Shown: piece by piece, positions 1 through 14,060 of the stretch
Position numbering within the stretch: position 1 is the stretch's first letter
Layout: each line of letters opens with the position of its first letter
Assembly: GCA_000002435.2 (NCBI GenBank)
Contig: CM018789.1
Source of the DNA: Giardia intestinalis
Lineage: Eukaryota
Length of the DNA: 64,000 nucleotides
Strand: one strand, 5' to 3'
Translations under genes and position numbers: made by a program
The notes under the pieces: model-generated
Databases searched by the model: none
Told to the model about the DNA's origin: nothing
What the model saw: only the letters and a program-made list of their open reading frames with translations

Positions 1-1408
1 AGGATATGATGGTTATTAGAGCCCCTGTTACAACAGGGCACACGATGAGCTCTTGCAACTGTTCCACAGACCCTTTGTCCAGAAAGAAGATCCTGTACAG
101 GTACTGCCCGATGATGCTGCCCCTAAAGGTACTCATAATGTGTACCAATAATATGAGCACTATGTGCACTGGTAGAACAGGTGGCATTTTCTGTATGAGT
201 GCCTGATTTGCATCCATTGAAACGGAAACAGAGAGCGACTGTCCTCCGTTATAGCTACTGTCCAATATCATGCTGTCACCCATTACACTGCCTTTGCTTG
301 TATCTACAGAGTCTATGCTTCTAGAACTAAGGGCCAATCCTGTTGATTGCAAGGGTAGAGATGGCGCGCCAAGCTGTCCTCCTTGCGGATTAGAGTCTGT
401 ATCTGCTTTTTCATCATTATTGCTGAGACATCCTCTCACGGAAAAGCTGTATATCGGCCAACTAATGTTGTGCTGGGCAACCTTCTCGAAGCGACAATGC
501 TGAAGAGATACTAAGATTACAGGACCAATCACCAGCTCAATAAGGCGCTGAGTAATGATCCTCGACACCTCCATGCATTGCTCCTCGTGTCGCACAGAGC
601 TCAAGTCAAGGAAGAAGTCTAAAATATCTGAGATCTTCTCATGAAGCTCTTTTATCTGAGATCTTTTCGCTGGGTCATGCGGTGGGCAGTATGGTCCGTC
701 GCTCAGATTGGCTAAGTCGACAGACATCACCAATAGCTCGTAGCACATATAAGAGATAAATGGCCCCAGCAACACGCGATTTATCCACTCTAGGAGCTCT
801 GGCAATTGGCCTCTGTGAGTCTGGCTGTGCTGCAGTGAGGCCAGTATTAACCCTTTAACAGCCATCTGCTGGTCCTTCTCACCTGTGGCGTAGCAGTTGG
901 TAATCTTCACTAAAAATGGATATTCGCCGCCAACACTCAGTAAATTAAGCTGCTTAACTGTAATTGACGAGGCTATGAACTTGAGGCTTGCAGTTGCGTA
1001 GCCGCGGATGTCCGGATTTGGCGATGACAGGGCGGAGGTGAGCACGTCCTGCATAGGCTCAGACTGCAAAAGCAAGCTAAGCATGTCCTCCGTTAGATTC
1101 TGAAGGAGATAGGCATAGGACATAACAACCTGTGTCTTTATTTCTAAGAAGTTGTCTGCCTTGCAGTACACCACCTTTAGAAATTCAAGGTTGTCACTTG
1201 TAATGGCACTCTGGACATTTTCAAGCCCTGAGATGCTTCCCCTATGAAGTAACGTCGCAAAGAGCTCTATATTTTCTCTAATATCCGAGCTGTTCTTAGA
1301 TGTAGCTGGGAAGGCGTTACAGATAACAGAACGTACATACATTATGTTCTCCAAGCTATTCTTATCCTTGGGGGCTCGAATACGGCGAGTGGCTACCTCA
1401 GGAAACAT
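1..1408 (-). CDS. hypothetical protein, partial (start ATG at 1408; 3' end lies beyond the left window edge)
   Basis: Not in the ORF track because no stop falls inside the window. Reverse-complement translation from the ATG (complement of 1406-1408) reads MFPEVATRRIRAPKDKNSLENIMYVRSVICNAFPAT... and stays open for >460 codons to position 1. The ATG is directly preceded by a strongly AT-rich initiator (gtcgaaaaaacatattttaatttagagATG). Confidence 0.5.
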   Translation of the reverse strand, partial: MFPEVATRRIRAPKDKNSLENIMYVRSVICNAFPATSKNSSDIRENIELFATLLHRGSISGLENVQSAITSDNLEFLKVVYCKADNFLEIKTQVVMSYAYLLQNLTEDMLSLLLQSEPMQDVLTSALSSPNPDIRGYATASLKFIASSITVKQLNLLSVGGEYPFLVKITNCYATGEKDQQMAVKGLILASLQHSQTHRGQLPELLEWINRVLLGPFISYMCYELLVMSVDLANLSDGPYCPPHDPAKRSQIKELHEKISDILDFFLDLSSVRHEEQCMEVSRIITQRLIELVIGPVILVSLQHCRFEKVAQHNISWPIYSFSVRGCLSNNDEKADTDSNPQGGQLGAPSLPLQSTGLALSSRSIDSVDTSKGSVMGDSMILDSSYNGGQSLSVSVSMDANQALIQKMPPVLPVHIVLILLVHIMSTFRGSIIGQYLYRIFFLDKGSVEQLQELIVCPVVTGALITIIS

Positions 1409-1415
1409 CTCTAAA

Positions 1416-3832
1416 TTAAAATATGTTTTTTCGACATTCTTCAAGAACAGACAAGACCTGAGACCTAACGCTTGGCTTGGGGGCAATGGAGCGTGCAGCC
1501 CAGTAGAAGACGTCCTTCTTTTTTGCAGTTAAAAGCTCTGCTTCATGAGGATAAAGTTTCCTCACTATATCTGAGTGTCCATGGTATGCAGCAAACATGA
1601 GTGCAGACCACCCGCTATCTGTCTGCATCCCTGCCTCCTGCTTAATGAGGAACTTCACCGCTATACTATTTCCTATGGCGGCTCCAATCATCAGCGCTGT
1701 GTAGCCCCCCACTGTCCGCTGTCCTGCCTGTGGTTGTGTCTTGAAGAACAGCGAATAGTTCCGAGTTGCTACTGAGTACATGAGCCGAGTAAAGTTCCAC
1801 TTCTCGTTTCCATAGTCCATGAGCGAAGAAACTATATCTTTTCGACCATATTGCGCAGCAAGAGCTAGTGCGCAAAGTCCGTGCTTCTTTTGCAGCCCAT
1901 GTTCTTTCTCAGCTAACAGCCGTGCGACATCGGCATGCCCATTTTCCACTGCAAACATCAGGGCACTCATTCCATGCTTAGTTTGGAGCCCTGCTTCAAC
2001 ATCTATTAATGCCTCAACTACTTCGACGAACCCTTGGTTTGCTGCTATCATCAATGCTGTTTCTCCGTTGCTTGTGACTAGCCCGCCCTCGTGTGGCAGC
2101 AAAAGCTGCACTACTTCATGTCTTCTGTACTGTGCGGCTAGCATCATGGCTGTTCTTCCTTCCTGATCCTGGAGTCCTGCTTCTTCTAACAGAAGCTTGC
2201 AGACATCTGTATGACCATACCGTGCTGCGATCATAAGTGCTGTTCTCCCCGTGCTTGTTCTGATGCCCCGCTCTATCAGGAGCATCTTAACATTGTCTAT
2301 TTCACCTGTGTATGCCGCGATCATCAGAGCCGTGCTCCCTGTGATCTGGCATTTACTCCGTCTATCTGTAGAATGAAACTCTAGCTGCTGTGTGTATATA
2401 TGCCCAAGAGTATCCAAGTAACCTATAAGGTCGTGTGCATTCCTATTACATACACTCATCATTAGCCTGGTTTGTTTGTCTACACGCTTGTGAAGGGGGG
2501 AAGAGAGGGTGATGGGGAGTTCATCAGCCGCTATTTTATGGCATAGCAGCGATAATATGAGGGTGTTTCCTCTGCGTAATGCCTCTTCAAAAATGCCAGA
2601 GTCTAGAGCGTCAATGTTGTCTAAAACCGTATCAATTTTCGAACATTGCACTGCATGCATAAGTCTTTCCCACGGGCTGCTTACGCAGTCTTTGTCCTCC
2701 AACAGTAACATACATTCATGTCGCCTCATTGTGCGAGCAATATCAAGTGCGCTCTTTCCTGTCTTTGTTCTCAGCCCTGCCTCGAACTCCAACAGCGCTT
2801 CCACACACTCGAAGTGATTGTTCTCCACAGCAAGCATTAGAGCGGTATACCCATCATTATCTTGCATCCGTGCCTCATGAGGAGCCAAAAGCCGAACAAA
2901 CTCTAACTTTCCGGCAGAGGATGCCAACATTAGGGCAGTCCTGCCATCCTCTGTTGTATGCCTCTTTTCTGTGGGCAGATACTTGGCCACTTCGTGCAGA
3001 CAATCCAGCAGGACACACTCCATCAGCGTCGTCCTTCCCTGGGGCATGTCGGGTTCTGAAAGAGTTTCTGAAGAATCTAAATTATGCTTTTCTGTAAATA
3101 GTGACGGAGGAACTATGGATGTGGGTTGACCAAATTGAAGATAAGAAAACACACACTGCAGGGTTTCAGGTGTATAAATAGACGATTCCGCCAGCACGGC
3201 TGCACGGCTGACGTACTCTGAAGTCTCACTGCATTGCAAAGTACATAGCTCAAGAAGAACAAGGCCAAGGCAATGCTTCAGAGATATGACATCTGTTAAA
3301 GGCGCTTCGGTCGCTATGCTCATAGATCTAGTCTCCAATCCCAACAGGAACAGAGGATCCAGTAAGACTGGCCCCTCCAGATTGTAATTAGAGATGATAT
3401 CTGCGGCACCAAACCTTACAGGAAGCTCAGAGAACTCCGCTAGATTGGAAGAGAGGTAGTCAATGGCCTTTTCAATGCTTTCTGCAACTCGAAGAACAAT
3501 TGCTTCACTAATGTGGGTACAAGCGTGCGCCTGGCTATTAAGAAGTACAGCTAGTTGTAGGGGAACGACGTTAAACTCTAAAAGAGCTTCAGAGTCCGAT
3601 AGGACAATTATCTTGTAGGCAAGTATGCTCGGGTGGCATAGTTTCTCGATTGCATGAATAAGTCGAGTGAAAGGTTTGGCAGATCTTCCCTCCAGTCTGG
3701 TAAAGTTTATGTGTCGGACAAAGACCTGCTCGTTGTGTTTTACAGAGAATGCGCGATATGTAACAATATCCCTACCTTCAAATATCACGAGACAGTCTCG
3801 ATAGTGGGTATTGATAAGAGAGTCAGACATTA
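1416..3832 (-). CDS. NEK-like degenerate pseudokinase domain fused to ankyrin repeats (Protein 21.1-type)
   Basis: ORF track 1416..3959 begins at GTG. The first ATG with an AT-rich initiator (ggaaaaaataaatcgaccttaATG) is at 3832 (MSDSLINTHYRD...). The N-terminal ~250 aa have kinase-like remnants (HPSILAYK, FGAAD, ...DVISLKHCLGLVLLEL) but no intact catalytic motifs. The C-terminal half is made of reiterated G(R/E)TALM(I/L)AA ankyrin repeats. Confidence 0.6.
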
Positions 3833-3840
3833 AGGTCGAT

Positions 3841-4491
3841 TTATTTTTTCCTTTCCCCTCCTGAGGACCGGAAACGGAGTGAGTTACGATAGGCCTTGCA
3901 GAAAGAGGAGATAGATCCATGCCATGTCCACGCATAGCATCTTTGTGGTCGGCACACACAGAGCCTTGTCTTGGATCCCTTCAGTCTAACAGACCGGGGA
4001 GTCTGATGAAGCCTTTCTTCTATGCGTGCAAGAACGTGACGCATATCATCTTCAGTCTTGTGAGTGAAAGTTATAACTCGCCGCTGGTCGAAATCTGCGA
4101 CTGCGTCCTCTGCAACCCCCATTATCTCGGCCTCGATGTTTTCTAGGATCTTTTTCGATGAATACCCACGCAAAACCAGTCGATCATACAGTTCCTCAGT
4201 GCCTAGACGCAGAAGAACGACGATGTCAAACCAGCGAATCGGGAAGCGTTCGCAGGAATGGTGGTCCACCAGGATGTTCTTATTCCTCTGGATGAGTACC
4301 TCAAGAGTGTCCAGAAGCCGCTCCTCATCCGGAACTACGGAGTTGAAGACTTCGTCGTAGCTCTCTATTAGTCCAGAGCTGTGGACAAGATCGCTTACAT
4401 TGACATATCTATAATCTGGATGGAGCTCCAAGAAGCGCTTAGCAAGGGTCGTCTTCCCAACCCCAGGGGTTCCTGTGACCAATATCCTCAT
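3841..4491 (-). CDS. AK6: adenylate kinase isoenzyme 6 (AK6 / Fap7 / hCINAP family) with ~50-aa C-terminal extension
   Basis: MRILVTGTPGVGKTTLAKRFLE is a P-loop, followed by YVNVSDLV...YDE, ILVDHHSCERFPIRWFDIVVLLR and LYDRLVLRGYSSKKILENIEAEI. These align residue-for-residue with human AK6 blocks (ILLTGTPGVGKTTLGK / YINVGDLA / [23 protein letters not shown] / [23 protein letters not shown]). The ORF-track start is TTG; the first ATG (MRIL) is at 4491. Confidence 0.8.
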   Translation of the reverse strand: MRILVTGTPGVGKTTLAKRFLELHPDYRYVNVSDLVHSSGLIESYDEVFNSVVPDEERLLDTLEVLIQRNKNILVDHHSCERFPIRWFDIVVLLRLGTEELYDRLVLRGYSSKKILENIEAEIMGVAEDAVADFDQRRVITFTHKTEDDMRHVLARIEERLHQTPRSVRLKGSKTRLCVCRPQRCYAWTWHGSISSFCKAYRNSLRFRSSGGERKK

Positions 4492-4522
4492 CGATGCTGA
4501 TAGTCTGTTTAGTCCCAACGCC

Positions 4523-4705
4523 TCAAAAGTAGCTTTTTCGAAAATGCCTCAACTGATCTCCGCGGACTCCGTCACAAACCTTGTCCAGTGTGCGATTTAC
4601 AGATAAATTGAGCCGGAAGTAAGAACGGAACACAAACCCCTGGCTTAAGAGAAACACGACCACCAAATAGGTAATCACACTTTCAGTCTTGTCACCTATG
4701 TACAT
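4523..4705 (-). CDS. possible small ORF (60 aa) with one hydrophobic segment, inside an unusually long intergenic gap
   Basis: ATG (complement of 4703-4705) with a moderately AT-rich upstream initiator (ccaaatatttacgc...ATG). Product: MYIGDKTESVITYLVVVFLLSQGFVF.... There is no homology support. It is retained only because the 525-bp gap 4492-5016 is atypically long for this genome. Confidence 0.15.
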   Translation of the reverse strand: MYIGDKTESVITYLVVVFLLSQGFVFRSYFRLNLSVNRTLDKVCDGVRGDQLRHFRKSYF

Positions 4706-5016
4706 GTCCGTGCGTAAATATTTGGTAAGGATTGCTTCACAAAACACCAACGCGTATCAAAGACAACGTCCTCGAATTGAATGATGATGCCACCCTGATG
4801 GACATTTTTTCGAGAAAAAACTACAGATGAGATCCAATAAGTATCACATACCAGCAACTATAGACGTGCACTGCAGGATATGCAACTTTTTATACTACCA
4901 GTTTGAAGTCTTCGAAGTGTGGCTTTTCTGCCATGCTTTCAGACCTCTGTAGGCCAATCTACCAATGAAAAGATGCTAACTGTGATTATGAGTCCCAACA
5001 ATATGCAACATAAATA

Positions 5017-5826
5017 CTACCAGATTGCCGTCTCAGTCAGAAATGGTGGGCCTTGGAAACTCCCTGCTCCATCCTCGTCACAAGAGGGTGCAATCATATG
5101 GCAACTAGTGGCCAGTATCGAGAGGGTGTGGAGCCTTGGGAGGAACTCAACGGCCATATCATGGACTTTCTCAACGAGATGAGAAGGAAGGTCATAAAGA
5201 ATCAGTCTCTGCAACGACTGATGAAGGAGTCGGAAGTCTGGAACAGTTGTCAAATAGGTCAGAGGGCCAATTGTAAGACTTACTACCTCGTCAAGTCGCT
5301 CTAAAAGATCTGCAAGCAACTTATTTGTAAATGGCTGAGACTCATTGTAAAGTTCCACAATCTGCTGTGGGTAGTCCATGTTGCCTACTGCCTGTTCGCC
5401 AGGCTTCTTCACGACTTGGAACTGTAGGTTTCGTAGAGCTTGCAGACATAATGTCTCCTCTTTCTTCTGTGTAAAAAGGATGTCCGGTATAGTTGCAAGC
5501 TTGTCGGACAGCTTGGCACTCATAGATCGTCGCTCTAGATAAGATACTGAAGGGTTGGTTGGGGTATGCAGGGCAGCGAGCGCTGAAAGAGACTCATACG
5601 GCTGAATATATTGCTGATACTTTTTTTTCAGCATAGAGGAGGCAGAGGTCGCTGATTTCGACAGTCCAAGTGCTCGAGAAACAGCTGCCCAGGAGAAGTT
5701 GGACGATTGGGTTTTCAGTTGTTGCACCGCGTGACAAAGAGACTCCACGGTCACAGAGACCCCTCCAATGGTCCACTGCACTCCAGGATTTTTCTGAACA
5801 CATAGCTCACATATATTGTTGTCCAT
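5017..5826 (-). CDS. hypothetical protein; N-terminus weakly resembles a single Myb/SANT-like helix-turn-helix
   Basis: 269-aa ORF with an ATG start at 5826 and an AT-rich initiator (ggtagtttttcaaaaggatATG). The N-terminal W...L..AV...NFSWAAVSRALGLSK spacing is Myb/SANT-like, but this is not diagnostic. Confidence 0.45.
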   Translation of the reverse strand: MDNNICELCVQKNPGVQWTIGGVSVTVESLCHAVQQLKTQSSNFSWAAVSRALGLSKSATSASSMLKKKYQQYIQPYESLSALAALHTPTNPSVSYLERRSMSAKLSDKLATIPDILFTQKKEETLCLQALRNLQFQVVKKPGEQAVGNMDYPQQIVELYNESQPFTNKLLADLLERLDEVVSLTIGPLTYLTTVPDFRLLHQSLQRLILYDLPSHLVEKVHDMAVEFLPRLHTLSILATSCHMIAPSCDEDGAGSFQGPPFLTETAIW

Positions 5827-5840
5827 ATCCTTTTGAAAAA

Positions 5841-6709
5841 CTACCGATTGTGTTTACATCTGTTTACAACTCTGCAGAGCCGACTGGGGGTTGCCGCATA
5901 TGCACCGTATGCTTCCCTGAGCATATATGTGTCGAACTCTGCCTCTGCTAGCTGGATGTTGAAGACACTCGTTGTCTTGTCGGTTGAGGTGCAACCATCT
6001 GCTCCCTTCTGCAGTTGACTGCACAGCTGGCACGTCCTTGCCACGTAGATGGCCTGGATGGTCTTCTCCGGCAGCGCTACTTGATAGATGAAGGGGTACT
6101 GCTCCAGCCTCCCGTTGTCTCCGTACCTAATTCTGCCGCGAACCGCCTCCTCGTCGACATGGAGCGCCAGCCTCCCGAAGTCCTCGAACGTCAGCTCTCG
6201 GATGCTGTGCCTTGGGTTGCAGAACGTGCTGCTGTCCGACAACAGCTTCACGGTTATCGCAGAGTATATCTCGGCCAGGCTGTGATACGACTTTACCCAG
6301 AGGTAGCCGAGGCTGCACACCGGCGCGAGGAGGGTGCTACACAGGAAAAGCGTCCCGGTGTCGTATCTGTGCATGATGTTTCCAAGGACCACCCCGTGGA
6401 GCATCATGTTGATGCACTCGTTGAGCGTCTGGAAGGAGAGAGAGGAGTCCTTCTGGCTCTTGTTCGCCATGAGTTCTCTGAAGTACCGCATCTTCTTGTC
6501 CTTGGCAGTCCTGTCGACGTAGAAGGACGCCTGGATGCAGGGCAGGTGGTGGTAGTAGCTGCATGTCACGAGGGCGAAGATGAACTCGCAGAGAAACAGC
6601 CTTACCCCTACAACATGATCCACTTTACCCCCTGATTGTTTCCAGTGTTGTGTTGTTAGGGCACGCCTATAGATGTGGTTCAAAGATTTTACAAATAGAC
6701 TTACTTCAT
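5841..6709 (-). CDS. hypothetical multi-pass membrane protein; candidate two-exon gene (exon 1 6705-6709 ATGAA; intron 6601-6704; exon 2 5841-6600)
   Basis: The minus-strand ORF (track 5841..6683, TTG start) has extreme GC3 bias (~85% G/C at codon position 3) from ~6600 down to the stop. This establishes the coding strand: the overlapping plus-strand ORF 6015..6635 has unbiased third positions. There is no in-frame ATG until 6491, although the GC3-biased, hydrophobic segment (KLFLCEFIFALVTCSYYHH...) begins at 6600. Upstream there is an AT-rich initiator plus ATGAA|GTAAGT...CCTAAC...GTAAG|GCTG. Splicing this way joins ATG in frame exactly where the GC3 bias starts, giving MKLFLCEFIFALVTC.... 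Confidence 0.4.
6601..6704 (-). other. candidate 104-nt spliceosomal intron (5' GTAAGT, internal CCTAACAACACAAC branch-like motif, 3' AG)
   Basis: Minus-strand sequence: GTAAGTCTATTTGTAAAATCTTTGAACCACATCTATAGGCGTGCCCTAACAACACAACACTGGAAACAATCAGGGGGTAAAGTGGATCATGTTGTAGGGGTAAG. Of the four AG dinucleotides downstream of the CTAAC motif, this is the only acceptor that keeps ATGAA in frame with the high-GC3 ORF. The canonical Giardia 3' motif ACTAACACACAG is only approximated, and it lies 54 nt from the proposed acceptor. Confidence 0.35.
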
Positions 6710-7009
6710 TTATAACTGTATTTAGAGATGGAGGTAGCTAGTGGTTATGAATGTAGAGCTTTTCTGACACCTTTGCTTATCAAATCTGGTGCGCTCTCTA
6801 AGAGACTTTTATATTTAACCAATACGCGCGCATCGGTTACCGCTCGACCGTAGCCCTCCTCCTCTTGCCCCCTGCGAGGACGCCGCCACTGGCTAGACGC
6901 GGGCGTCGTTGCTGCCCGGCCTTCTCGTGACCTCCTTCCTTCATGAGGTGTGCTCACCCCTCTCCGTCAGCACCACTCTCTGACGCATACACAGCTTGTC
7001 CATCCGGCC

Positions 7010-8230
7010 CTTGAGAAGAGCCACATCACACGAGGAAGGGCGCCGTTTACTCGAGGAGAGAGGCGATTGCGTCGTGGCCATGCCTCCTTGCGATGTCGAG
7101 GGCGGTGGTGCCGGGCGGGAAGCCGAGCCACTCACGGGTGGTCTGCATGCCTTTCTCCTTGTCCATCAGGAGCCTCGCACACTCCAGGTGACCACCCTGC
7201 GCTGCATGCATGAGCGCTGTCCATCCGTTGTTAGTCTTCATGCCGTCTTCTTTGTCTACTAGAAGCCTCACGCAGTCCGAGCAACCGTTGTCGGCTGCGT
7301 GCATGAGGGCAGTCCACCCACTGTTGGCCCTCATCCCGCCTTCCTTGTCCAGTAGAGCCTCCGCACACTCGCGGCGCCCATACTGTGCTGCATACATTAG
7401 GGCGGTCTTCCCATCATCCGTTTTCATGCCACCCTCCCTCTCCAGGAGGAGCTGCACGGACTCCAGTTTGCCGCGCCGTGCTGCGTACATAAGGGCGGTG
7501 GTGCCGTTGTTCCTCCGTTTGCCGCCTTCCCTCTTCAGCAGGAACTTCACGCATTCCGGGTGGCCCCCGTACGCCGCCCGCATGAGCGCGGTCTCTCCAA
7601 GCTTATTCTGTGTGCTACCTTTCATCTTCAGCAGAACCTTCACGGCTCTCAGGTTTCCATACTCTGCTGCTGACATGATGTCGGTCTCGACGAAGCCGTA
7701 TTTCAGCAACAAAAAAGACGAGAGACTCAGCCCGCTCCTCCCTTGTTGGTGGTAAAACTCTGCGGCTTCATCGATGCTCCTATCAGAAGCAGACCCCTCG
7801 GTGTCCTGAGGGCGACGACTCGCCTCCGAATCCCTGAGCACACCACTCGACATTTTTAACTTCGTCTGCTTGCAGGAAGACACTGCCACGGAAACACACA
7901 CTTTGCTCTCTGCTTCACTGAAAACGGTTTGTCAACTGCTGTCCGAGCATCTCCGTGAGAGCCGCCGCGCTGGGTGGGCCGCCCGCTCACCGTCCGGGGT
8001 CCAAGGTTCAGATCTTGAAGCTCGAACTCGTGCCCTCATACAAGGCCTCCTCCCCTGTGGGTAGGCGGGTCTCACGCTCGTTCACTTCTCCAATCCAGGA
8101 CTCAGAACTCGAAGCTTGAGCGTCGAATGTCATGATGATTTACTCCACCCACCGGTTGCTTCCAGTGGTGTGCTGCTGGGGCCTGCCTGCAGGTATGGTC
8201 CAGAGATCCCACGGGCAAGCTCTTGCTCAG
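7010..8230. repeat. left arm of perfect inverted repeat (palindrome); partner 11142..12352
   Basis: The reverse complement of 11142-12352 matches 7010-8230 base for base. The ORF-track proteins are identical: 7047..7901(-) = 11461..12315(+), 7210..7755(+) = 11607..12152(-), 7870..8064(+) = 11298..11492(-). The outer boundary is sharp, at cttgagaagag (7010) / ctcttctcaag (12352). Confidence 0.85.
7047..7853 (-). CDS. ankyrin-repeat protein (Protein 21.1 family), palindrome copy A
   Basis: ORF track 7047..7901 starts at GTG. The first ATG with an initiator (gaagttaaaaATG) is at 7853 (MSSGVLRDSEAS...). Five or six TALM-type ankyrin repeats (GETALMRAAYGGH, GTTALMYAARRG, GKTALMYAAQYG, GWTALMHAADNG, GWTALMHAAQGG). 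It is identical at the nucleotide level to copy B at 11509..12315. Confidence 0.7.
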   Translation of the reverse strand: MSSGVLRDSEASRRPQDTEGSASDRSIDEAAEFYHQQGRSGLSLSSFLLLKYGFVETDIMSAAEYGNLRAVKVLLKMKGSTQNKLGETALMRAAYGGHPECVKFLLKREGGKRRNNGTTALMYAARRGKLESVQLLLEREGGMKTDDGKTALMYAAQYGRRECAEALLDKEGGMRANSGWTALMHAADNGCSDCVRLLVDKEDGMKTNNGWTALMHAAQGGHLECARLLMDKEKGMQTTREWLGFPPGTTALDIARRHGHDAIASLLE

Positions 8231-8658
8231 TCCCTGACTAGTCCGGAGACGAGGGTTGGTCGTGTATCAATATAAGGACCACAGTGGTAGTAGGAGGAGC
8301 TATTGCGTTCCTCAGCTGTTCTACGGGCGTGTGCTCGGTCTAGGTGTGCACATAGGTCCTTTTGGAGATCAAGCCATCTCATGGACTCACTGGTCTACTA
8401 GGGTGCCTCTCCTTGCTCTCCCCTCACGGTGAGTGAAGCTCTGGTCTTTGTTGTCATTCTCAATACTGTCCATGTAGATCAGCAGCAGCTAGCGGGGCTT
8501 TCTCTTCTGGTTGGGATTCAACTCGGTTGTGTGTCCAGTCTTTGCACCTTCTCGGTCGTTGTCGACAGGTCCCAGGGGTGGATTCATTCAGCTGTCAGAA
8601 GTAGGATGACAGGAGACGGTCGCTCTGGGTGACCAGGCTTTCGGCCCGGCCCGTCTGA

Positions 8659-9474
8659 TCAGCTTCGTCGGGTGCTCGTTCGCCTCTGCAGCCATGTGGG
8701 CGATGGCGAAGGCAGCCCGGACAGAGAGCTTCTCAACGTCCACGTGGAGCTCCTCGAGGTGCCCCTTGGACTGGGGTGGAGGGATCCGTCTGTCCCGTAG
8801 ATGATCGGGAGCGTCCCGTCCCTGTACTTCTTGACCTTCTCGTTGTAGTAGGCATCCATCTGGCGGAGCTGGATGACACCCACATCTATCGCCTTGCACT
8901 TGTCGACAAGCCAGATGTCGGGCTTCTGGTTCTGGTCGCTGAGGTGGCTGTGGGTCTCGACTTCCAGTTCCGGTTGAGCTTCCCCGAGACGCGGAGGCAC
9001 AGGCACGCGACGATCATGTCGTGCCTCGTGGTCGAGGGTCCACGCCGTGTGGCAGCCCGGGCAGGTGCCTCTTGTCTGCGCCATGATCGAGCCGCCCTTC
9101 TCCTTCAGGGCCCTTTCCTCCTCGGTCAGCACGCCGCCGCTCTGTCCGGAAGCTGGTGTGCGCGTGAGGAGGCGGTTGAAGTAGGCCCCTTCCCCTGCAG
9201 TGCCTGGCCGTTCACCGGCAGCTCCACCGGGTCTCTGGTCCCCTTGTTGACGTCCAGGGAGGCCCATACCCTCCGCAGCTCGTCGTGGTAGGATCCAGGC
9301 ATGAGCAGGCCCAGGCCGCCCTTCTCCTTCGGGTACGCCAGGAAGTCGACCAGGCGATCGCAGCTTCTGTTGGTTAGTGCTGAAGCCTTGTGCGACGCGT
9401 CTGTTGAGCTCCTCGTAGTCCGCCTTGTCCGATGTTACTTCGACCAGGGGGGCGTAGCTCACCATCGGGACCAC
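8659..9474 (-). pseudogene. CCHC zinc-finger / REL-endonuclease-like C-terminal fragment of retroelement ORF
   Basis: CPGCHTAWTLDHEARHD, then KPDIWLVDKCKAIDVG and LPIIYGTDGS. The position 3' of the RT fragments is as in R2/GilM-type elements. Confidence 0.4.
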
Positions 9475-9604
9475 GCAGTGACATCAGGATGAGCTTCTGG
9501 TGGGTGGTTATGGGGGCGTTCTCAATCTTCCTCAGGGCAGTCACAGCACCTGCGATGACCTTTGGAGCTTGCAGGAGTGGGGGACGCCGGGTGGTTGAGG
9601 AAGG

Positions 9605-10039
9605 TCACCTCCTCGCCCGCCATGGTGGACTTGCATTGTCGCTCCTGATCGTCAGGCCCATGGCGGCAGCCTCTGCTGTGGCCAGCTGTGTTATCACACC
9701 TGCTGGGTACCCTTCGTCGTGGAACGCCACGATGTCGTCCGCTAGGCAAGGAAGGTGATGCCCCTCTCCCTGAGGCGTCTCAGGAGGCGCTCGATGGCCA
9801 TGCAGAAGAGGAGCGTGCTGAGCGGGCTGCCCTGGGGGACGCCACAGACCTCGCACTTCACGTCCCGGCTGTGCCTCAGATCGAGGAAGTTCCTGATGTA
9901 GTCGATCAGGACCTTCAGGATGCCCGCCTCGTTCAGGGCTCTGATGACCTCCGCCTTCGGGAGCGAGTTGAAGGCATTCTTTGTGTCGAGGGAGACGGCG
10001 TGCTCCTGTCCTGCTGATGAGCTCGTGGGCCCTCCTCAC
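9605..10039 (-). pseudogene. reverse-transcriptase fragment containing motif C (LADD)
   Basis: HHLPCLADDIVAFHDEGYPAGV matches the RT active-site xADD motif context. The surrounding sequence is degenerate. Confidence 0.4.
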
Positions 10040-10104
10040 ACCTACCGCGTACGCGTTCTGCTTGAAGGCGATCTGCTCGCATGAGAGGTAGTTGGCATGC
10101 TTGA

Positions 10105-10524
10105 TCAGCCCTTCAGCAGGACGCGGTGGAAGATGTTCGTGACCATCCGCCTATCGCGATCGGGGTATCCGTCGGACTCTTTCGGGATGAGGATCGCCCG
10201 GAACTCGAACATGGCCATCACGTCGGACATCGCCTCGGGGTGGGTGGTCAGCTCGTTGTACGCCTGCGTGAGGTACTTCACGAAGCTGTCGTTCTGCTTC
10301 ATCGCCTTGAGCTGGACCGGCCCGAGGCCAGACACGCCTGAGGCCTTCTTGTTGAGAGTCCTAACAGGGCCTTCCTCATTTCCTCCTCGGTTGCCGCTCC
10401 AGCCCGTCGAGCTCATCGATGGAGGGTAGTCAAGGCCAACGTAGCCTTCGGGGGGACGCACGGGTGTCTCATCAAGGGCGCGGAGAGCCTTAGCAACTGC
10501 TCCGAAGCTCAGCGCGTTGTTCAC
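10105..10524 (-). pseudogene. reverse-transcriptase N-terminal fragment (fingers/palm motifs 1-2), frameshifted
   Basis: ILIPKESDG...RRMV resembles the non-LTR RT IPK...RPI block. The ORF is truncated on both sides. Confidence 0.4.
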
Positions 10525-11508
10525 CCTGTTTGCTATCCGGCGTCTCGCCTTCTCGGGGTCTGGGTCTGCCTTACTCTGGGCCTGCTCTACTGTGTTGCTT
10601 GAGTCCTCTGGGGCTTCCCACCAGGGCGTTCAGGCCCCTGATAGCAGGGAGCGCGACCCCAGTCCCGGCCTGTTCGATGCTCGCGATCATGCGTGCCCCC
10701 TGGTGGATGAGCATAGCGAGCTCTGTCTGGTTCGGTACTGGGCCGGAATGATCAACTTGTCGTCGCCCAGCACTCTGTGTCTGTCATCGTTTGCTTCTCT
10801 CAGGTGCTCGGTTGGTTGCTTGGCGCTCTCGCACGGTAGGCCACAGAGCCAGCGTGTGTGTCCTGCTGAGAGAGTAAACGTCTTTGGAGTGGTCCCCCGA
10901 GTAGAGACTCACGGCTTGCTCTCTGGGTGTCCCTGAGGTACGATTTTGCATTCGTAGTGCAGATCTGGTCCTCGCGGGCTCTCCTTCGCCTCAGGTCCAG
11001 CTGTGCGCACGCCCACGGAACAGCCGAGGAACGCACAGACCCCAGATCCACAAACGGAGGGAGCTCCTCCTATCACCGTTGTGGCTATCGTTACGACCCG
11101 CGGCCAACCCTCATCTCCAGACTGGCCGGGAATTGAGCGAGGCTTGCCCGTGGGATCTCTGGACCATACCTGCAGGCAGGCCCCAGCAGCACACCACTGG
11201 AAGCAACCGGTGGGTGGAGTAAATCATCATGACATTCGACGCTCAAGCTTCGAGTTCTGAGTCCTGGATTGGAGAAGTGAACGAGCGTGAGACCCGCCTA
11301 CCCACAGGGGAGGAGGCCTTGTATGAGGGCACGAGTTCGAGCTTCAAGATCTGAACCTTGGACCCCGGACGGTGAGCGGGCGGCCCACCCAGCGCGGCGG
11401 CTCTCACGGAGATGCTCGGACAGCAGTTGACAAACCGTTTTCAGTGAAGCAGAGAGCAAAGTGTGTGTTTCCGTGGCAGTGTCTTCCTGCAAGCAGACGA
11501 AGTTAAAA

Positions 11509-12315
11509 ATGTCGAGTGGTGTGCTCAGGGATTCGGAGGCGAGTCGTCGCCCTCAGGACACCGAGGGGTCTGCTTCTGATAGGAGCATCGATGAAGCCGC
11601 AGAGTTTTACCACCAACAAGGGAGGAGCGGGCTGAGTCTCTCGTCTTTTTTGTTGCTGAAATACGGCTTCGTCGAGACCGACATCATGTCAGCAGCAGAG
11701 TATGGAAACCTGAGAGCCGTGAAGGTTCTGCTGAAGATGAAAGGTAGCACACAGAATAAGCTTGGAGAGACCGCGCTCATGCGGGCGGCGTACGGGGGCC
11801 ACCCGGAATGCGTGAAGTTCCTGCTGAAGAGGGAAGGCGGCAAACGGAGGAACAACGGCACCACCGCCCTTATGTACGCAGCACGGCGCGGCAAACTGGA
11901 GTCCGTGCAGCTCCTCCTGGAGAGGGAGGGTGGCATGAAAACGGATGATGGGAAGACCGCCCTAATGTATGCAGCACAGTATGGGCGCCGCGAGTGTGCG
12001 GAGGCTCTACTGGACAAGGAAGGCGGGATGAGGGCCAACAGTGGGTGGACTGCCCTCATGCACGCAGCCGACAACGGTTGCTCGGACTGCGTGAGGCTTC
12101 TAGTAGACAAAGAAGACGGCATGAAGACTAACAACGGATGGACAGCGCTCATGCATGCAGCGCAGGGTGGTCACCTGGAGTGTGCGAGGCTCCTGATGGA
12201 CAAGGAGAAAGGCATGCAGACCACCCGTGAGTGGCTCGGCTTCCCGCCCGGCACCACCGCCCTCGACATCGCAAGGAGGCATGGCCACGACGCAATCGCC
12301 TCTCTCCTCGAGTAA
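11509..12315 (+). CDS. ankyrin-repeat protein (Protein 21.1 family), palindrome copy B
   Basis: Identical to copy A. ATG at 11509 with gaagttaaaaATG. The stop TAA is embedded in the poly(A) signal AGTAAAC (12311-12317). Confidence 0.7.
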   Translation: MSSGVLRDSEASRRPQDTEGSASDRSIDEAAEFYHQQGRSGLSLSSFLLLKYGFVETDIMSAAEYGNLRAVKVLLKMKGSTQNKLGETALMRAAYGGHPECVKFLLKREGGKRRNNGTTALMYAARRGKLESVQLLLEREGGMKTDDGKTALMYAAQYGRRECAEALLDKEGGMRANSGWTALMHAADNGCSDCVRLLVDKEDGMKTNNGWTALMHAAQGGHLECARLLMDKEKGMQTTREWLGFPPGTTALDIARRHGHDAIASLLE

Positions 12316-12317
12316 AC
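12311..12317 (+). promoter_or_regulatory. poly(A) signal AGTAAAC (AGTRAAY consensus) overlapping stop codon of 21.1 copy B
   Basis: ctcgAGTAAACggc: the TAA stop sits inside the signal. The mirror copy gtttact lies at 7045-7051 for copy A. Confidence 0.5.
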
Positions 12318-12899
12318 GGCGCCCTTCCTCGTGTGATGTGGCTCTTCTCAAGAGGCAGAGAGAAAATGTCAGATAGGTGGGTTTGTGTGTGCCGGAAAGC
12401 AGTACAATGGAAATGGTAGCATATAGATATATGGAGATAGCGATATTATTAATGGAGTATGGCGGCAATGCAGAGAATGACGGTGAATACTGGTAATCCA
12501 TAGGTCAGATTCTTAAAGGCTGAAAATCTAAGAGCTCTACTAGGACTGCTTAGCATAGTAGTACGAAGCTCGGATAAGAAATTATAAAGTAATTGATAAG
12601 AGTATAGAAATGAAGATTTACAGACAAGAAGAATAAACTAACGTAATAGCAAATACTACAGGACCATAAGCTGAGTGTATAGCATCATTAAGCAACAGAG
12701 TTCTGTTGGAAGCCAAGTCTACGCCATCACTATAATTTAATCAAGTGTGCTGCTACACATTATAAAAGGAAAGGAGACCTTTGTAGAACCTCCATTATTA
12801 TCACAGCGATCATGACAGTGAGATATCAGGTATTCTAGATCCACAAAGACTCACCAGACGAGTTGAACCTTTGAATGAATGATTTGCAAACACAGACCT

Positions 12900-14060
12900 T
12901 TATAAACGTCTACTAAGGCAAAGAGGCTCTGATAAGAGCGGGTATGCGTCACAGAAGCCAATGCTCTGTGCATACTCCAAACAACTCATCACTCCTTTGC
13001 CATTCCACCGAGAAGCAATGTTACGCTCATCAGGCCTATGTAGTGAAAAGTTCTGGTAGTGAGCTTCGTTGTATGCAGATAACAATGTGACACAAGCCAC
13101 AGATTTCATTAGCGTCGCATAACAGAGCGCGTTGTTATCAAAAACATCATGCTTGCTCAATTCCAACGTGCGAAACTGTTCAGGGCAGTATCGTATCAAG
13201 GCCCGTATGGAGTCCACTTGATCTTTGCAGCAAGCTATCATTATTGCCGTCTGTCCTAATCCGTTCGTTTTACCGAGAAAGCCAGGAGCCATTTCTATAA
13301 GTCTAGCAATGTCCTTAGTAACTGCAGCGCGCATCCAGCGATCGAGATCTAGTGCGTCAGATAGATTCTTGGCATGAGGATCATTTTCTAAATCTTGAGA
13401 AATACTCTCGAGGATGTCTAGTGCAAACAGGTGGTCGATAAAAACAGTTTTTGTACGATCTGTGTTTCGGACATGCCTTTCCAGAACAAAGAACATTCCT
13501 GATTCGTAAGTAGACAAGAACAAGGCCACATCAAAGTGCCGTGCCTCAACGGCAAGCATCAGAGCCGTCTTCCCAGATACCCAGCTCGACGGTTTAGTTC
13601 CGGAGCATTTTATGTGTGCTTCGGAATGCATTTGCAGGCATGCTTCATAAGGAGCAAGGCTTCTCACTAGCTCCAAGAACCCTCCTTGCGCTGCTAGCAT
13701 GAGCGCAGACATTCCATTAGAGTCCTGAAGGCCCAGAAGACATCTTCCGGCGGCTCCTTCTTCTGTCATTGCCCAATTTAGAAGTGTGCTGGCTAGCAAT
13801 TCCTTCTTGGCGCGTAGTAAATACATTAGTGCGCTAGTTCCTCGAGGAAACTCTTCGCCACCAAGGAGAGAATCATCGGTACGGACGGAAAGGTCGAAAG
13901 CGGAGACTCCTGCGAGCAAGTCAGCAGGGGTGGACACTTCTTTAAGATATAGAAAGAGATCGTTTTCACTGGCTAGTGCATCCAAGTGCCCGGTAGCTGG
14001 TAGAGCTTGCGCTGCTATTGCCATGTCCAAACATTCCAGAAAGTCTTCTTTGTCCTCCAT
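12900..14060 (-). CDS. ankyrin-repeat protein (Protein 21.1 family)
   Basis: TALM-type repeats (GMSALMLAAQGG, GKTALMLAVEARH, GQTAIMIACCKD). Two candidate ATGs, at 14075 and 14060. I prefer 14060 (MEDKEDFLE...) because it has a textbook initiator ttggattttaaaATGg. Confidence 0.6.
   Translation of the reverse strand: MEDKEDFLECLDMAIAAQALPATGHLDALASENDLFLYLKEVSTPADLLAGVSAFDLSVRTDDSLLGGEEFPRGTSALMYLLRAKKELLASTLLNWAMTEEGAAGRCLLGLQDSNGMSALMLAAQGGFLELVRSLAPYEACLQMHSEAHIKCSGTKPSSWVSGKTALMLAVEARHFDVALFLSTYESGMFFVLERHVRNTDRTKTVFIDHLFALDILESISQDLENDPHAKNLSDALDLDRWMRAAVTKDIARLIEMAPGFLGKTNGLGQTAIMIACCKDQVDSIRALIRYCPEQFRTLELSKHDVFDNNALCYATLMKSVACVTLLSAYNEAHYQNFSLHRPDERNIASRWNGKGVMSCLEYAQSIGFCDAYPLLSEPLCLSRRL

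What the first reader, a model, noticed from the sequence alone, without database searches (positions are those of the whole stretch)
8400..10950. GC-rich dead non-LTR retrotransposon (RT plus CCHC/REL-endonuclease) at the palindrome centre
Three colinear minus-strand ORF fragments carry RT motif 1/2-like (ILIPKESDG..R..), RT motif C (CLADDIVAF) and a C-terminal CCHC finger plus a PD..D..K endonuclease-like block (CPGCHTAW...KPDIWLVDKCK). This is the domain order of R2/GilM/GilT-type elements, but broken by frameshifts and much shorter (~2 kb) than an intact element. Base composition (~60% GC or more) contrasts with the flanking genes. In Giardia the described families are telomeric (GilM/GilT) or dead (GilD), and Genie elements have been reported associated with repeats. 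Whether this copy belongs to one of them or to an undescribed lineage cannot be decided from the window.
Basis: partly seen in the sequence, partly recalled or inferred. Interest (0 to 1): 0.55.

Follow-up and report, generated by a model that had tools for sequence, protein, structure and literature searches.

The report
Dead Giardia retrotransposon inside a palindrome
This is a decayed, non-functional copy of the known "dead" Giardia retrotransposon family (GilD, also called Genie 2); it is ordinary, but its own inverted ends merge into a perfect 1.2-kb inverted duplication of a neighbouring ankyrin gene.

Summary
On the minus strand of window 8139-11223 (wider than the reported 8400-10950) lies a 3,085-bp dead non-LTR retrotransposon. 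After frame repair it matches Pfam RVT_1 (E 2e-19). A consensus of five copies aligns end to end with intact reverse transcriptase-endonuclease ORFs of diplomonads (E down to 8e-60). The C-terminal half of a close relative folds like R2 proteins. The window is Giardia duodenalis assemblage A.

The five other copies recovered from Giardia samples are also frame-broken. The copies differ by microhomology-flanked deletions, some lie next to VSP genes, and they carry terminal inverted repeats of about 170-205 bp. These are the published traits of GilD, the one dead Giardia family. The other Giardia RT family found is only 26-31% identical. I therefore file the element as GilD/Genie 2, which is already known. 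I could not compare it with the reference sequence.

The new detail concerns the palindrome. Its perfect arms (7010-8220 and 11142-12352, no mismatch) each carry an intact ankyrin gene and run 82 bp into the element's terminal repeats. Identity then drops to about 79%. This suggests a recent inverted duplication or gene conversion seeded in those repeats. A second copy (L003) also sits in a palindrome. Reverse transcriptase remnants between divergent identical VSP pairs were already noted by Xu et al. 2020.

The parts
8139..11223 (-). Complete unit of the dead non-LTR retrotransposon (GilD/Genie 2-like), 3,085 bp, from terminus TTTACTCCACC... to ...GGTGGAGTAAA
   Evidence: blastn to three G. 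duodenalis DH copies (L002, L003 end to end at 84-85%, L001 at 87%). The termini were defined by alignments A1 and A2. It is the only copy in the window.
11000..11223 (-). 5' terminal inverted repeat, about 205-224 bp. The outer 82 bp (11142-11223) lie inside the perfect palindrome arm.
8139..8345 (-). 3' terminal inverted repeat, about 205 bp. The outer 82 bp (8139-8220) lie inside the perfect palindrome arm.
9594..10197 (-). Reverse transcriptase core (motifs 1/2, A, B, C with LADD, D/E) spread over three reading frames
   Evidence: Pfam RVT_1 E 2e-19 on the repaired protein.
9303..9593 (-). Thumb/linker region including the KEKGGLGLL motif, frame-shifted
8773..9063 (-). CCHC finger and REL (PD-(D/E)xK) endonuclease remnant: CPGC..H, RHD, E, KPD, D.GV, K..KY. 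The fourth Cys of the finger was lost in a private 38-bp microhomology deletion.
   Evidence: Conserved columns in alignment A3. Deletion shown. Foldseek of relative P0002: the top 7 hits are R2 proteins, E 4e-8 to 3e-6.
10777..10848 (-). Possible degenerate N-terminal C2H2-like finger (LCGLPCESAKQPTEHLREANDDRH)
   Evidence: Seen by eye against the finger column of P0015, P0020 and P0016 in A3. Weak evidence.
7010..8220 (.). Left arm of the perfect inverted repeat (1,211 nt). It carries an intact ankyrin-repeat ORF (7047-7901, minus strand) plus the outer 82 bp of the element's 3' TIR.
   Evidence: Pfam Ank_2 E 2.6e-51.
11142..12352 (.). Right arm of the perfect inverted repeat. It carries the identical ankyrin ORF (11461-12315, plus strand) plus the outer 82 bp of the 5' TIR.
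   Evidence: Short-read contigs from other isolates stop at 12323-12384.
6621..6813 (+). Third, strongly decayed, transition-rich and AT-enriched copy of the terminal repeat. It has the same orientation as the 3' TIR and starts about 12 bp beyond a synteny breakpoint at about 6609.
   Evidence: blastn E 7.5e-5 over 61 nt. A local alignment covers about 190 nt.

Best explanation
Window 8139-11223 (minus strand) is a fossil copy of the Giardia non-LTR retrotransposon family described as GilD (Arkhipova & Morrison 2001), which is the same as Genie 2 (Burke et al. 2002). When alive, the element encoded one ORF of about 700-760 aa with a reverse transcriptase followed by a CCHC finger and a restriction-like (PD-(D/E)xK) endonuclease. 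By analogy with R2, it would have copied itself by target-primed reverse transcription after nicking the target; that step is inferred, not shown. This copy cannot do so. It carries at least 14 private frame-shifting indels, several stop codons and three private microhomology-flanked deletions (22, 38 and 53 bp), one of which removes part of the CCHC finger. It is inert DNA. The unit is bounded by terminal inverted repeats of about 170-205 bp, a feature of the whole family. In the window these repeats have served as the inner edge of a much younger event. One flank, carrying a complete ankyrin gene, was copied in inverted orientation to the other side, or the two sides were homogenised by gene conversion. 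The crossover lies 82 bp inside the repeat. The result is a perfect 1,211-bp palindrome whose spacer is the old element. The most likely route is intrastrand pairing or template switching between the two terminal repeats during repair or replication, followed by a second switch at the outer edge (7010/12352). That route is inference. The consequence is an identical, divergently oriented gene pair. This matches the layout already reported for some VSP gene pairs with a reverse transcriptase remnant between them.
For: RT: RVT_1 at E 2e-19 on the repaired window protein and E 1.8e-17 on the 5-copy consensus. The best solved structures by sequence are R2 proteins (9nl2_A at 6.9e-7, 8gh6_A at 3.4e-5). 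Colinearity with intact RT-endonuclease ORFs: blastp of the consensus over aa ~80-690 gives P0016 8e-60, P0024 4e-59, P0015 5e-52, Hexamita P0022 2e-50 and Spironucleus P0026 8e-50. Endonuclease: the CCHC, RH(D/N), KPD, D.V and K..KY columns are conserved. An AlphaFold model of relative P0002 gives R2 proteins as its top 7 Foldseek hits (E 3.7e-8 to 2.7e-6), followed by the influenza PA-N endonuclease. Organism: contigs L010 and L011 are 100% identical to the window over 11.7 kb, and the only named relatives of the element are G. duodenalis proteins. Dead family: all 5 proteins found among 5.8 billion are frame-broken readings. The copies are 90-95% identical with mostly private indels, and the majority consensus still needs at least 4 frame repairs. 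GilD traits: deletions flanked by 4-10 nt of microhomology, and VSP genes beside L001 and L003; both are stated for GilD in PMC2861651. Terminal repeats: 170 nt at 98% in L002. The family is distinct from the other Giardia RT family, at 26-31% identity to P0015, P0020 and P0027. There are no telomere repeats or tandem arrays. Palindrome: 1,211 nt with 0 mismatches, then identity drops to about 79% (34/43, read off the alignment) beyond a 1-nt indel at 8221. The arms abut the element termini with no spacer, and the axis equals the element midpoint. Contig L003 is independently a palindrome around another copy, with flank arms 97-99% identical. Short-read contigs of many isolates end at the outer arm edge. 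Literature: 4 of 7 '<- ->' duplicated VSP pairs in WB have a psiRT between them (PMC7000408). Identical inverted vsp pairs with 2-4 kb spacers and abrupt divergence points are also described (PMC2996952).
Against: No GilD or Genie 2 reference sequence could be compared, and both primary papers are absent from the library. Family assignment therefore rests on matching published traits and on the statement that Giardia WB has only three RT families. That statement, the equation GilD = Genie 2 and the '172 bp inverted repeats' come from my own memory of the abstracts. The window copy lies beside ankyrin genes, not VSP genes. The template-switch route for the palindrome is not demonstrated. Direction (which arm is the original) and mechanism (duplication or repeated gene conversion) cannot be told apart from one sequence. 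L002 has terminal repeats but no flank palindrome, so the repeats alone do not force one. The AlphaFold model has only moderate confidence (pLDDT 65) and TM-scores to R2 are low (0.33-0.37).
Confidence: 0.8

Rival explanations
1. The element belongs to a fourth, undescribed Giardia non-LTR lineage, not to GilD/Genie 2.
For: No direct comparison with a GilD or Genie 2 reference was possible. The nearest intact relatives (P0016, P0024) are unnamed sequences from public read sets at only 28-31% identity.
Against: The window is WB-like assemblage A, the genome in which only three RT families were reported (own memory of Arkhipova & Morrison 2001). Every trait published for GilD that could be tested is met. 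Xu et al. annotate comparable psiRT remnants between inverted gene pairs in WB.
Confidence: 0.07
2. The palindrome existed first, as one of Giardia's many inverted identical gene pairs, and the retrotransposon later inserted into its centre.
For: Twelve tail-to-tail VSP pairs with 2.5-2.8 kb spacers have no RT remnant, so inverted pairs can exist without the element.
Against: The element is old: about 10% diverged from other copies, with inner terminal repeats only about 79% alike. The arms have 0 differences in 1,211 nt, so the arms are younger than the insertion. Perfect identity runs 82 bp into the element's own terminal repeats and there is no residual spacer between arm and terminus. An insertion into a pre-existing palindrome would not produce that.
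Confidence: 0.08
3. The 1.2-kb perfect inverted repeat is an assembly artefact (a fold-back chimeric long read or a mis-join), and only one ankyrin gene exists.
For: Identity is exactly 100%. Palindromic chimeras occur in long-read libraries. No contig recovered here spans a whole arm together with its outer flank.
Against: Short-read contigs from many independent runs stop at 12323-12384, at the outer arm edge. That is expected for a true repeat. With a single-copy arm, contigs from one side would read through. An independent 454-based DH contig (L003) shows the same layout around another copy. The same architecture is reported repeatedly in Giardia, including an experimentally described pair.
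Confidence: 0.05

Closest known systems
GilD (Arkhipova & Morrison 2001), the same as Genie 2 (Burke, Malik, Rich & Eickbush 2002); Giardia lamblia dead non-LTR family
   Same: Same host. All copies are dead, with substitutions, frameshifts and microhomology-flanked internal deletions. Some copies lie beside VSP genes. The unit is about 3 kb. Terminal inverted repeats reach about 170 bp at high identity. The domain order is RT followed by a C-terminal restriction-like endonuclease.
   Different: No difference was demonstrated. This copy is flanked by ankyrin (ARP-1/protein 21.1-type) genes and not by VSP genes. Sequence identity to the reference was not testable here.
GilM/GilT (Genie 1/1A), telomere-associated Giardia non-LTR elements
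   Same: Same host, the same broad clade of endonuclease-bearing non-LTR elements, and the same RT-CCHC-endonuclease order.
   Different: The Giardia proteins named 'Reverse transcriptase/endonuclease' (P0020, P0027), together with their unnamed close relative P0015, are only 26-31% identical to this family. They are intact ORFs of 880-1,130 aa. GilM is 5.5 kb and lies in arrays near chromosome ends (PMC7000408). The window has no telomere repeat and no tandem array.
R2 elements of animals (solved structures 8gh6, 8ibw, 9nl2, 9dou)
   Same: RT core, thumb, CCHC finger and PD-(D/E)xK endonuclease in the same order. They are the best structural and sequence matches in the PDB.
   Different: There is no 28S rDNA target and no clear N-terminal zinc-finger/Myb domains. 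The ORF is shorter (about 700-760 aa against about 1,100). Identity is about 16% in the structural alignments. R2 lacks terminal inverted repeats.
Identical inverted gene pairs of Giardia (Adam et al. 2010; Xu et al. 2020, '<- ->' VSP pairs with psiRT between)
   Same: Two identical genes point away from each other, separated by 3.2-6.3 kb that contains a reverse transcriptase remnant. Here the ORFs are 3,559 bp apart. Identity ends abruptly a few hundred bp upstream of the start codon and shortly after the stop codon.
   Different: The duplicated gene here is an ankyrin-repeat gene, not a VSP gene. The inner divergence point is shown here to lie inside the element's own terminal repeat, a detail not stated in the parts of those papers that I read.

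Membership tests
Restriction-like-endonuclease (R2-type) non-LTR retrotransposons | Reverse transcriptase domain with the canonical motifs | tested here: met
   RVT_1 E 2e-19 and 1.8e-17 on the consensus. Motifs A, B and C (LADD) are located.
Restriction-like-endonuclease (R2-type) non-LTR retrotransposons | CCHC finger and PD-(D/E)xK endonuclease C-terminal to the RT | tested here: met
   The conserved C..C..H..C, RH(D/N), KPD, D.V and K..KY columns are shared with intact elements. Foldseek puts R2 proteins as the top 7 hits, followed by the PA-N endonuclease. In the window copy itself the fourth Cys is deleted.
Restriction-like-endonuclease (R2-type) non-LTR retrotransposons | No N-terminal AP-type endonuclease; single ORF | tested here: met
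   RVT_1 is the only Pfam hit on the repaired protein and on the consensus protein. One colinear reading is recoverable after frame repair.
Restriction-like-endonuclease (R2-type) non-LTR retrotransposons | N-terminal zinc-finger/Myb DNA-binding domain | tested here: inconclusive
   There is only a degenerate C..C...H...H-like string at 10777-10848, judged by eye against A3. No Pfam hit.
GilD / Genie 2 | Resident in the Giardia duodenalis (lamblia) genome | tested here: met
   The window is 100% identical to Giardia read-set contigs. The named homologs are G. duodenalis DH proteins.
GilD / Genie 2 | Only dead copies: substitutions, frameshifts, internal deletions | tested here: met
   All six copies examined are broken. 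No intact ORF of the family appears among 1.84 billion representatives; the closest intact ORFs are 28-34% identical.
GilD / Genie 2 | Deletions mediated by microhomology (stated in PMC2861651) | tested here: met
   Deletions of 22, 38, 53, 53, 27 and 18 nt are each flanked by 4-10 nt of direct microhomology. The statement is read.
GilD / Genie 2 | Located in gene-poor regions next to VSP genes (PMC2861651) | tested here: inconclusive
   Met for L001 and L003. The window copy lies between ankyrin genes, and L002 lies among housekeeping-type genes.
GilD / Genie 2 | Inverted repeats of up to about 172 bp in all copies (own memory of the Burke et al. 2002 abstract) | tested here: met
   L002 has 170 nt at 98%. 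L003 and the window have about 205 nt at lower identity.
GilD / Genie 2 | High nucleotide identity to the deposited GilD/Genie 2 consensus | not testable with these tools
   The reference sequences and both primary papers are not available.
GilM / GilT (Genie 1 / 1A) | Head-to-tail arrays next to telomeric repeats | tested here: not met
   No (TAGGG)n in the window, no tandem repeat in 6000-13000, and a single copy in the window.
GilM / GilT (Genie 1 / 1A) | Close sequence similarity to the intact Giardia RT/endonuclease ORFs | tested here: not met
   26-31% identity to P0015, P0020 and P0027, which are 59-70% identical to one another. That these represent GilM/GilT is inferred from their names.

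The most novel reading that the evidence does not exclude
The terminal inverted repeats of the dead GilD/Genie 2 elements may act as recurrent seeds for fold-back or template-switch inverted duplications. Such events would create and homogenise identical divergent gene pairs in Giardia, not only VSP pairs but also ankyrin genes, and would mark structural breakpoints that differ between closely related isolates. On this reading a fossil retrotransposon is an active driver of gene-family duplication and genome plasticity in an organism with no demonstrated meiosis.
Probability: 0.35. Interest if true: 0.5.

Novelty: already known. Interest (0 to 1): 0.22.

Why it matters
As a retrotransposon this is a textbook fossil of a family described in 2001-2002, so it adds nothing new about mobile-element biology. 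The modest value lies in the context. The perfect palindrome arms end inside the element's own terminal repeats. A second copy shows the same layout, and a decayed third repeat sits at a breakpoint that truncates a gene in this genome but not in two other assemblage-A read sets. Together these give a concrete, testable mechanism for the long-noted identical inverted gene pairs of Giardia, including VSP genes involved in antigenic variation. They also flag such loci as places where assemblies break and isolates differ.

Tried and rejected
- Pfam on the raw ORF fragments found nothing; frame repair was needed.
- phmmer of the C-terminal 193 aa against the PDB gave only spurious armadillo-repeat hits; the endonuclease was recognised only by alignment and by fold.
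- Rfam and tRNA scans of 6000-13000 were empty, so the terminal repeat is not a known RNA gene.
- Both primary papers (PMID 11734649 / PMC64710 and PMID 11961096) and PMC1151983 are not held. A search for 'Genie 2' returned only laboratory vortexers.
- Two metagenome scans (terminal-repeat pattern; protein P0002) found no further copies.
- Four encoding-contig look-ups found nothing. Two failed because I cut the start codon instead of the stop codon on minus-strand ORFs. Two simply had no exact match.
- No target-site duplication is visible at the L002 termini.
- No similarity was found between the left outer flank (6600-7009) and the right outer flank (12353-12900).
- I could not tell which arm is the original, because the family's 5' and 3' terminal repeats have no fixed differences.
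- Names for the more distant ~1,000-aa hits were unavailable, so no formal RT tree with labelled clades was built.
Full report
**Observation.** A three-frame translation of 8200-11160 shows further reverse-transcriptase motifs between them in other frames. GC content is 0.60-0.65 across 8500-11000, against 0.42-0.49 in most of the surrounding sequence. The raw ORF pieces gave no Pfam hit. A 619-aa protein stitched across about eight frame changes matches RVT_1 at E 2e-19.

**Extent and copies.** A search of 5.8 billion proteins returned five relatives. Three are 'hypothetical proteins' of Giardia duodenalis DH, and two come from an ENA metagenome and from a public read set. All five are themselves frame-broken readings. 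I fetched their contigs (L001-L005). blastn then shows that homology to the window runs from 11223 down to 8139, a span of 3,085 bp. The termini are sharply defined as TTTACTCCACCCACCGGTTGCTTCC... and ...GGAAGCAACCGGTGGGTGGAGTAAA. These termini are the outer ends of a terminal inverted repeat. The repeat is 170 nt at 98% identity in L002, and about 205 nt at lower identity in L003 and in the window. The window holds only this one copy.

**Identity of the protein.**
- The copies are 90-95% identical, and the window copy is the most decayed. It has at least 14 private frame-shifting indels plus private deletions of 22, 38 and 53 bp.
- A majority consensus of five copies still needs at least four frame repairs.
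- The repaired 704-aa consensus matches RVT_1 (E 1.8e-17). Its best PDB hits by sequence are R2 proteins (9nl2_A at 6.9e-7, 8gh6_A at 3.4e-5).
- An exhaustive HMMER search with P0001 found 426 relatives.
- The consensus aligns colinearly over aa ~80-690 with intact ORFs:

| Protein | Source | E-value |
|---|---|---|
| P0016 | unnamed, public read set | 8e-60 |
| P0024 | unnamed, public read set | 4e-59 |
| P0015 | unnamed, ENA | 5e-52 |
| P0022 | Hexamita inflata | 2e-50 |
| P0026 | Spironucleus salmonicida | 8e-50 |

- In the multiple alignment, the CCHC finger and the RH(D/N), KPD, D.V and K..KY columns of the restriction-like endonuclease are conserved.
- An AlphaFold model of P0002, which is intact from RT motif E to the C-terminus, has pLDDT 65 overall and 80-90 in the nuclease core. 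Its top seven Foldseek hits in the PDB are all R2 retrotransposon proteins (E 3.7e-8 to 2.7e-6), followed by the influenza PA-N PD-(D/E)xK endonuclease.

**Organism and family.** Contigs L010 and L011 from Giardia read sets are 100% identical to the window over 11.7 kb, so the window is G. duodenalis assemblage A of the WB type.

The other Giardia RT family recovered consists of P0020 and P0027, named 'Reverse transcriptase' and 'Reverse transcriptase/endonuclease', plus the unnamed P0015. These are 59-70% identical to one another but only 26-31% identical to this element. I infer that they represent the telomeric GilM/GilT type. The window has no (TAGGG)n repeat and no tandem array.

[quoted passage not shown] Both traits are seen here. 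Six deletions among the copies are flanked by 4-10 nt of direct microhomology. One example is GACCACGA at the 38-bp deletion that removes the last Cys of the window copy's CCHC finger. L001 and L003 lie next to VSP genes.

From my own memory of the abstracts (the papers are not held):
- Arkhipova & Morrison found only three RT families in WB, one of them exclusively dead (GilD).
- Burke et al. described Genie 2, the same family as GilD, as about ten degenerate copies that all carry inverted repeats of up to 172 bp.

The 170-nt repeat of L002 fits this description. I therefore file the element as GilD/Genie 2 with about 0.85 confidence. The direct sequence comparison could not be made.

**The palindrome.** The perfect inverted repeat is 7010-8220 against 11142-12352, 1,211 nt with no mismatch. 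The slightly wider ends reported include mismatches. Each arm holds an intact ankyrin-repeat ORF pointing away from the centre (Ank_2 E 2.6e-51). The arms abut the element termini directly and continue 82 bp into the terminal repeats. Beyond a 1-nt indel at 8221, arm-to-arm identity falls to about 79% (34 of 43 positions, read off the alignment). The symmetry axis (9681) is the midpoint of the element.

The element is old: about 10% diverged from its relatives, with its inner repeats about 21% diverged from each other. The arms are identical. The arms are therefore much younger than the insertion. This argues against insertion into a pre-existing palindrome. It favours an inverted duplication, or a gene-conversion tract, whose inner end was set by homology between the two terminal repeats. 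That mechanism is inference.

Three things support the palindrome being real and not an assembly artefact:
- Short-read contigs from many runs end at 12323-12384, at the outer arm edge.
- The whole DH contig L003 is an independent palindrome around another copy. Its flank arms are 97-99% identical, falling to 86% about 45 bp inside the terminal repeat.
- The literature reports the same layout. Adam et al. 2010 describe 14 identical inverted vsp pairs with 2-4 kb spacers and abrupt divergence points. Xu et al. 2020 list four '<- ->' VSP pairs with a psiRT between them, 3.2-6.3 kb apart.

The ankyrin pair here, with ORFs 3,559 bp apart, is the same architecture with a different gene family.

**Side observations.**
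- Two read-set contigs (L014, L015) match window 1-6609 at 99.97% and then continue into different sequence with an intact 642-aa gene. The window keeps only its last 256 codons. Twenty other contigs share the window's junction.
- About 12 bp beyond this breakpoint lies a third, transition-rich and AT-enriched copy of the terminal repeat (6621-6813).
- Similar solo 3'-end fragments lie near the full copies in L003 and L001.
- These points suggest, but do not prove, that ends of this family mark rearrangement sites.

**Verdict.** This is a correctly recognised but ordinary dead retrotransposon of a known family. The only mildly new point is that the perfect gene-bearing palindrome arms end inside the element's own terminal repeats, which offers a testable mechanism for Giardia's identical inverted gene pairs.

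Noticed in passing
window 5841-6683 and ~6609; L014:8058-9986, L015: There is a structural difference between near-identical isolates. Contigs from SRR10063833 and SRR10063826 match window 1-6609 at 99.97% and then continue into other sequence with an intact 642-aa gene (followed by a 1,459-aa gene and a VPS13_N gene). The window and 20 other contigs keep only the last 256 codons of that gene (100% identical).
   Followed up: partly
window 6621-6813: A third, heavily decayed copy of the element's terminal repeat starts about 12 bp beyond the breakpoint above. It has the same orientation as the 3' repeat and differs mostly by C>T and G>A transitions, so it is AT-enriched.
   Followed up: partly
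L003:280-561 and 4379-4656; L001:8866-8936: Solo 3'-end fragments of the same family lie 260-325 bp from full copies in two DH loci. In L003 the fragment is part of the palindrome arms. L001's fragment lies upstream in inverted orientation, which hints that L001 is also palindromic, but the contig ends inside the 3' repeat.
   Followed up: no
L003 (whole contig AHGT01000170.1, 1-4773): The entire 4.8-kb DH contig is a palindrome around another dead copy, with a VSP gene fragment at its edge. Arm identity declines stepwise from 99% at the outside to 81% in the inner terminal repeat.
   Followed up: partly
window 12353-12900: An unusually long (about 550 bp) AT-rich intergenic stretch (GC 0.38) lies directly outside the right arm. 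It has no detectable similarity to the left outer flank or to the element.
   Followed up: partly
window 6901-7009: Short-read contigs coming from the left stop at 6901 (20 contigs) or 5958, about 109 bp before the perfect arm begins at 7010. The reason was not established; it could be another short repeat or heterozygosity in the GC-rich stretch 6830-7009.
   Followed up: no
L005:1648-2670 (SRR3177862): A copy from a more divergent Giardia sample (about 70% nt identity) is also frame-broken. It shows no terminal repeat upstream; a RING-finger gene ends only about 90 bp before its ORF. The family may therefore predate the split of assemblages, and this copy may be 5'-truncated.
   Followed up: no
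literature, PMC7000408 Table 2: Twelve tail-to-tail identical VSP pairs in WB share a very uniform spacer of 2.5-2.8 kb with no annotated gene. Whether that spacer is another repeated element was not examined, and none lies in this window.
   Followed up: no
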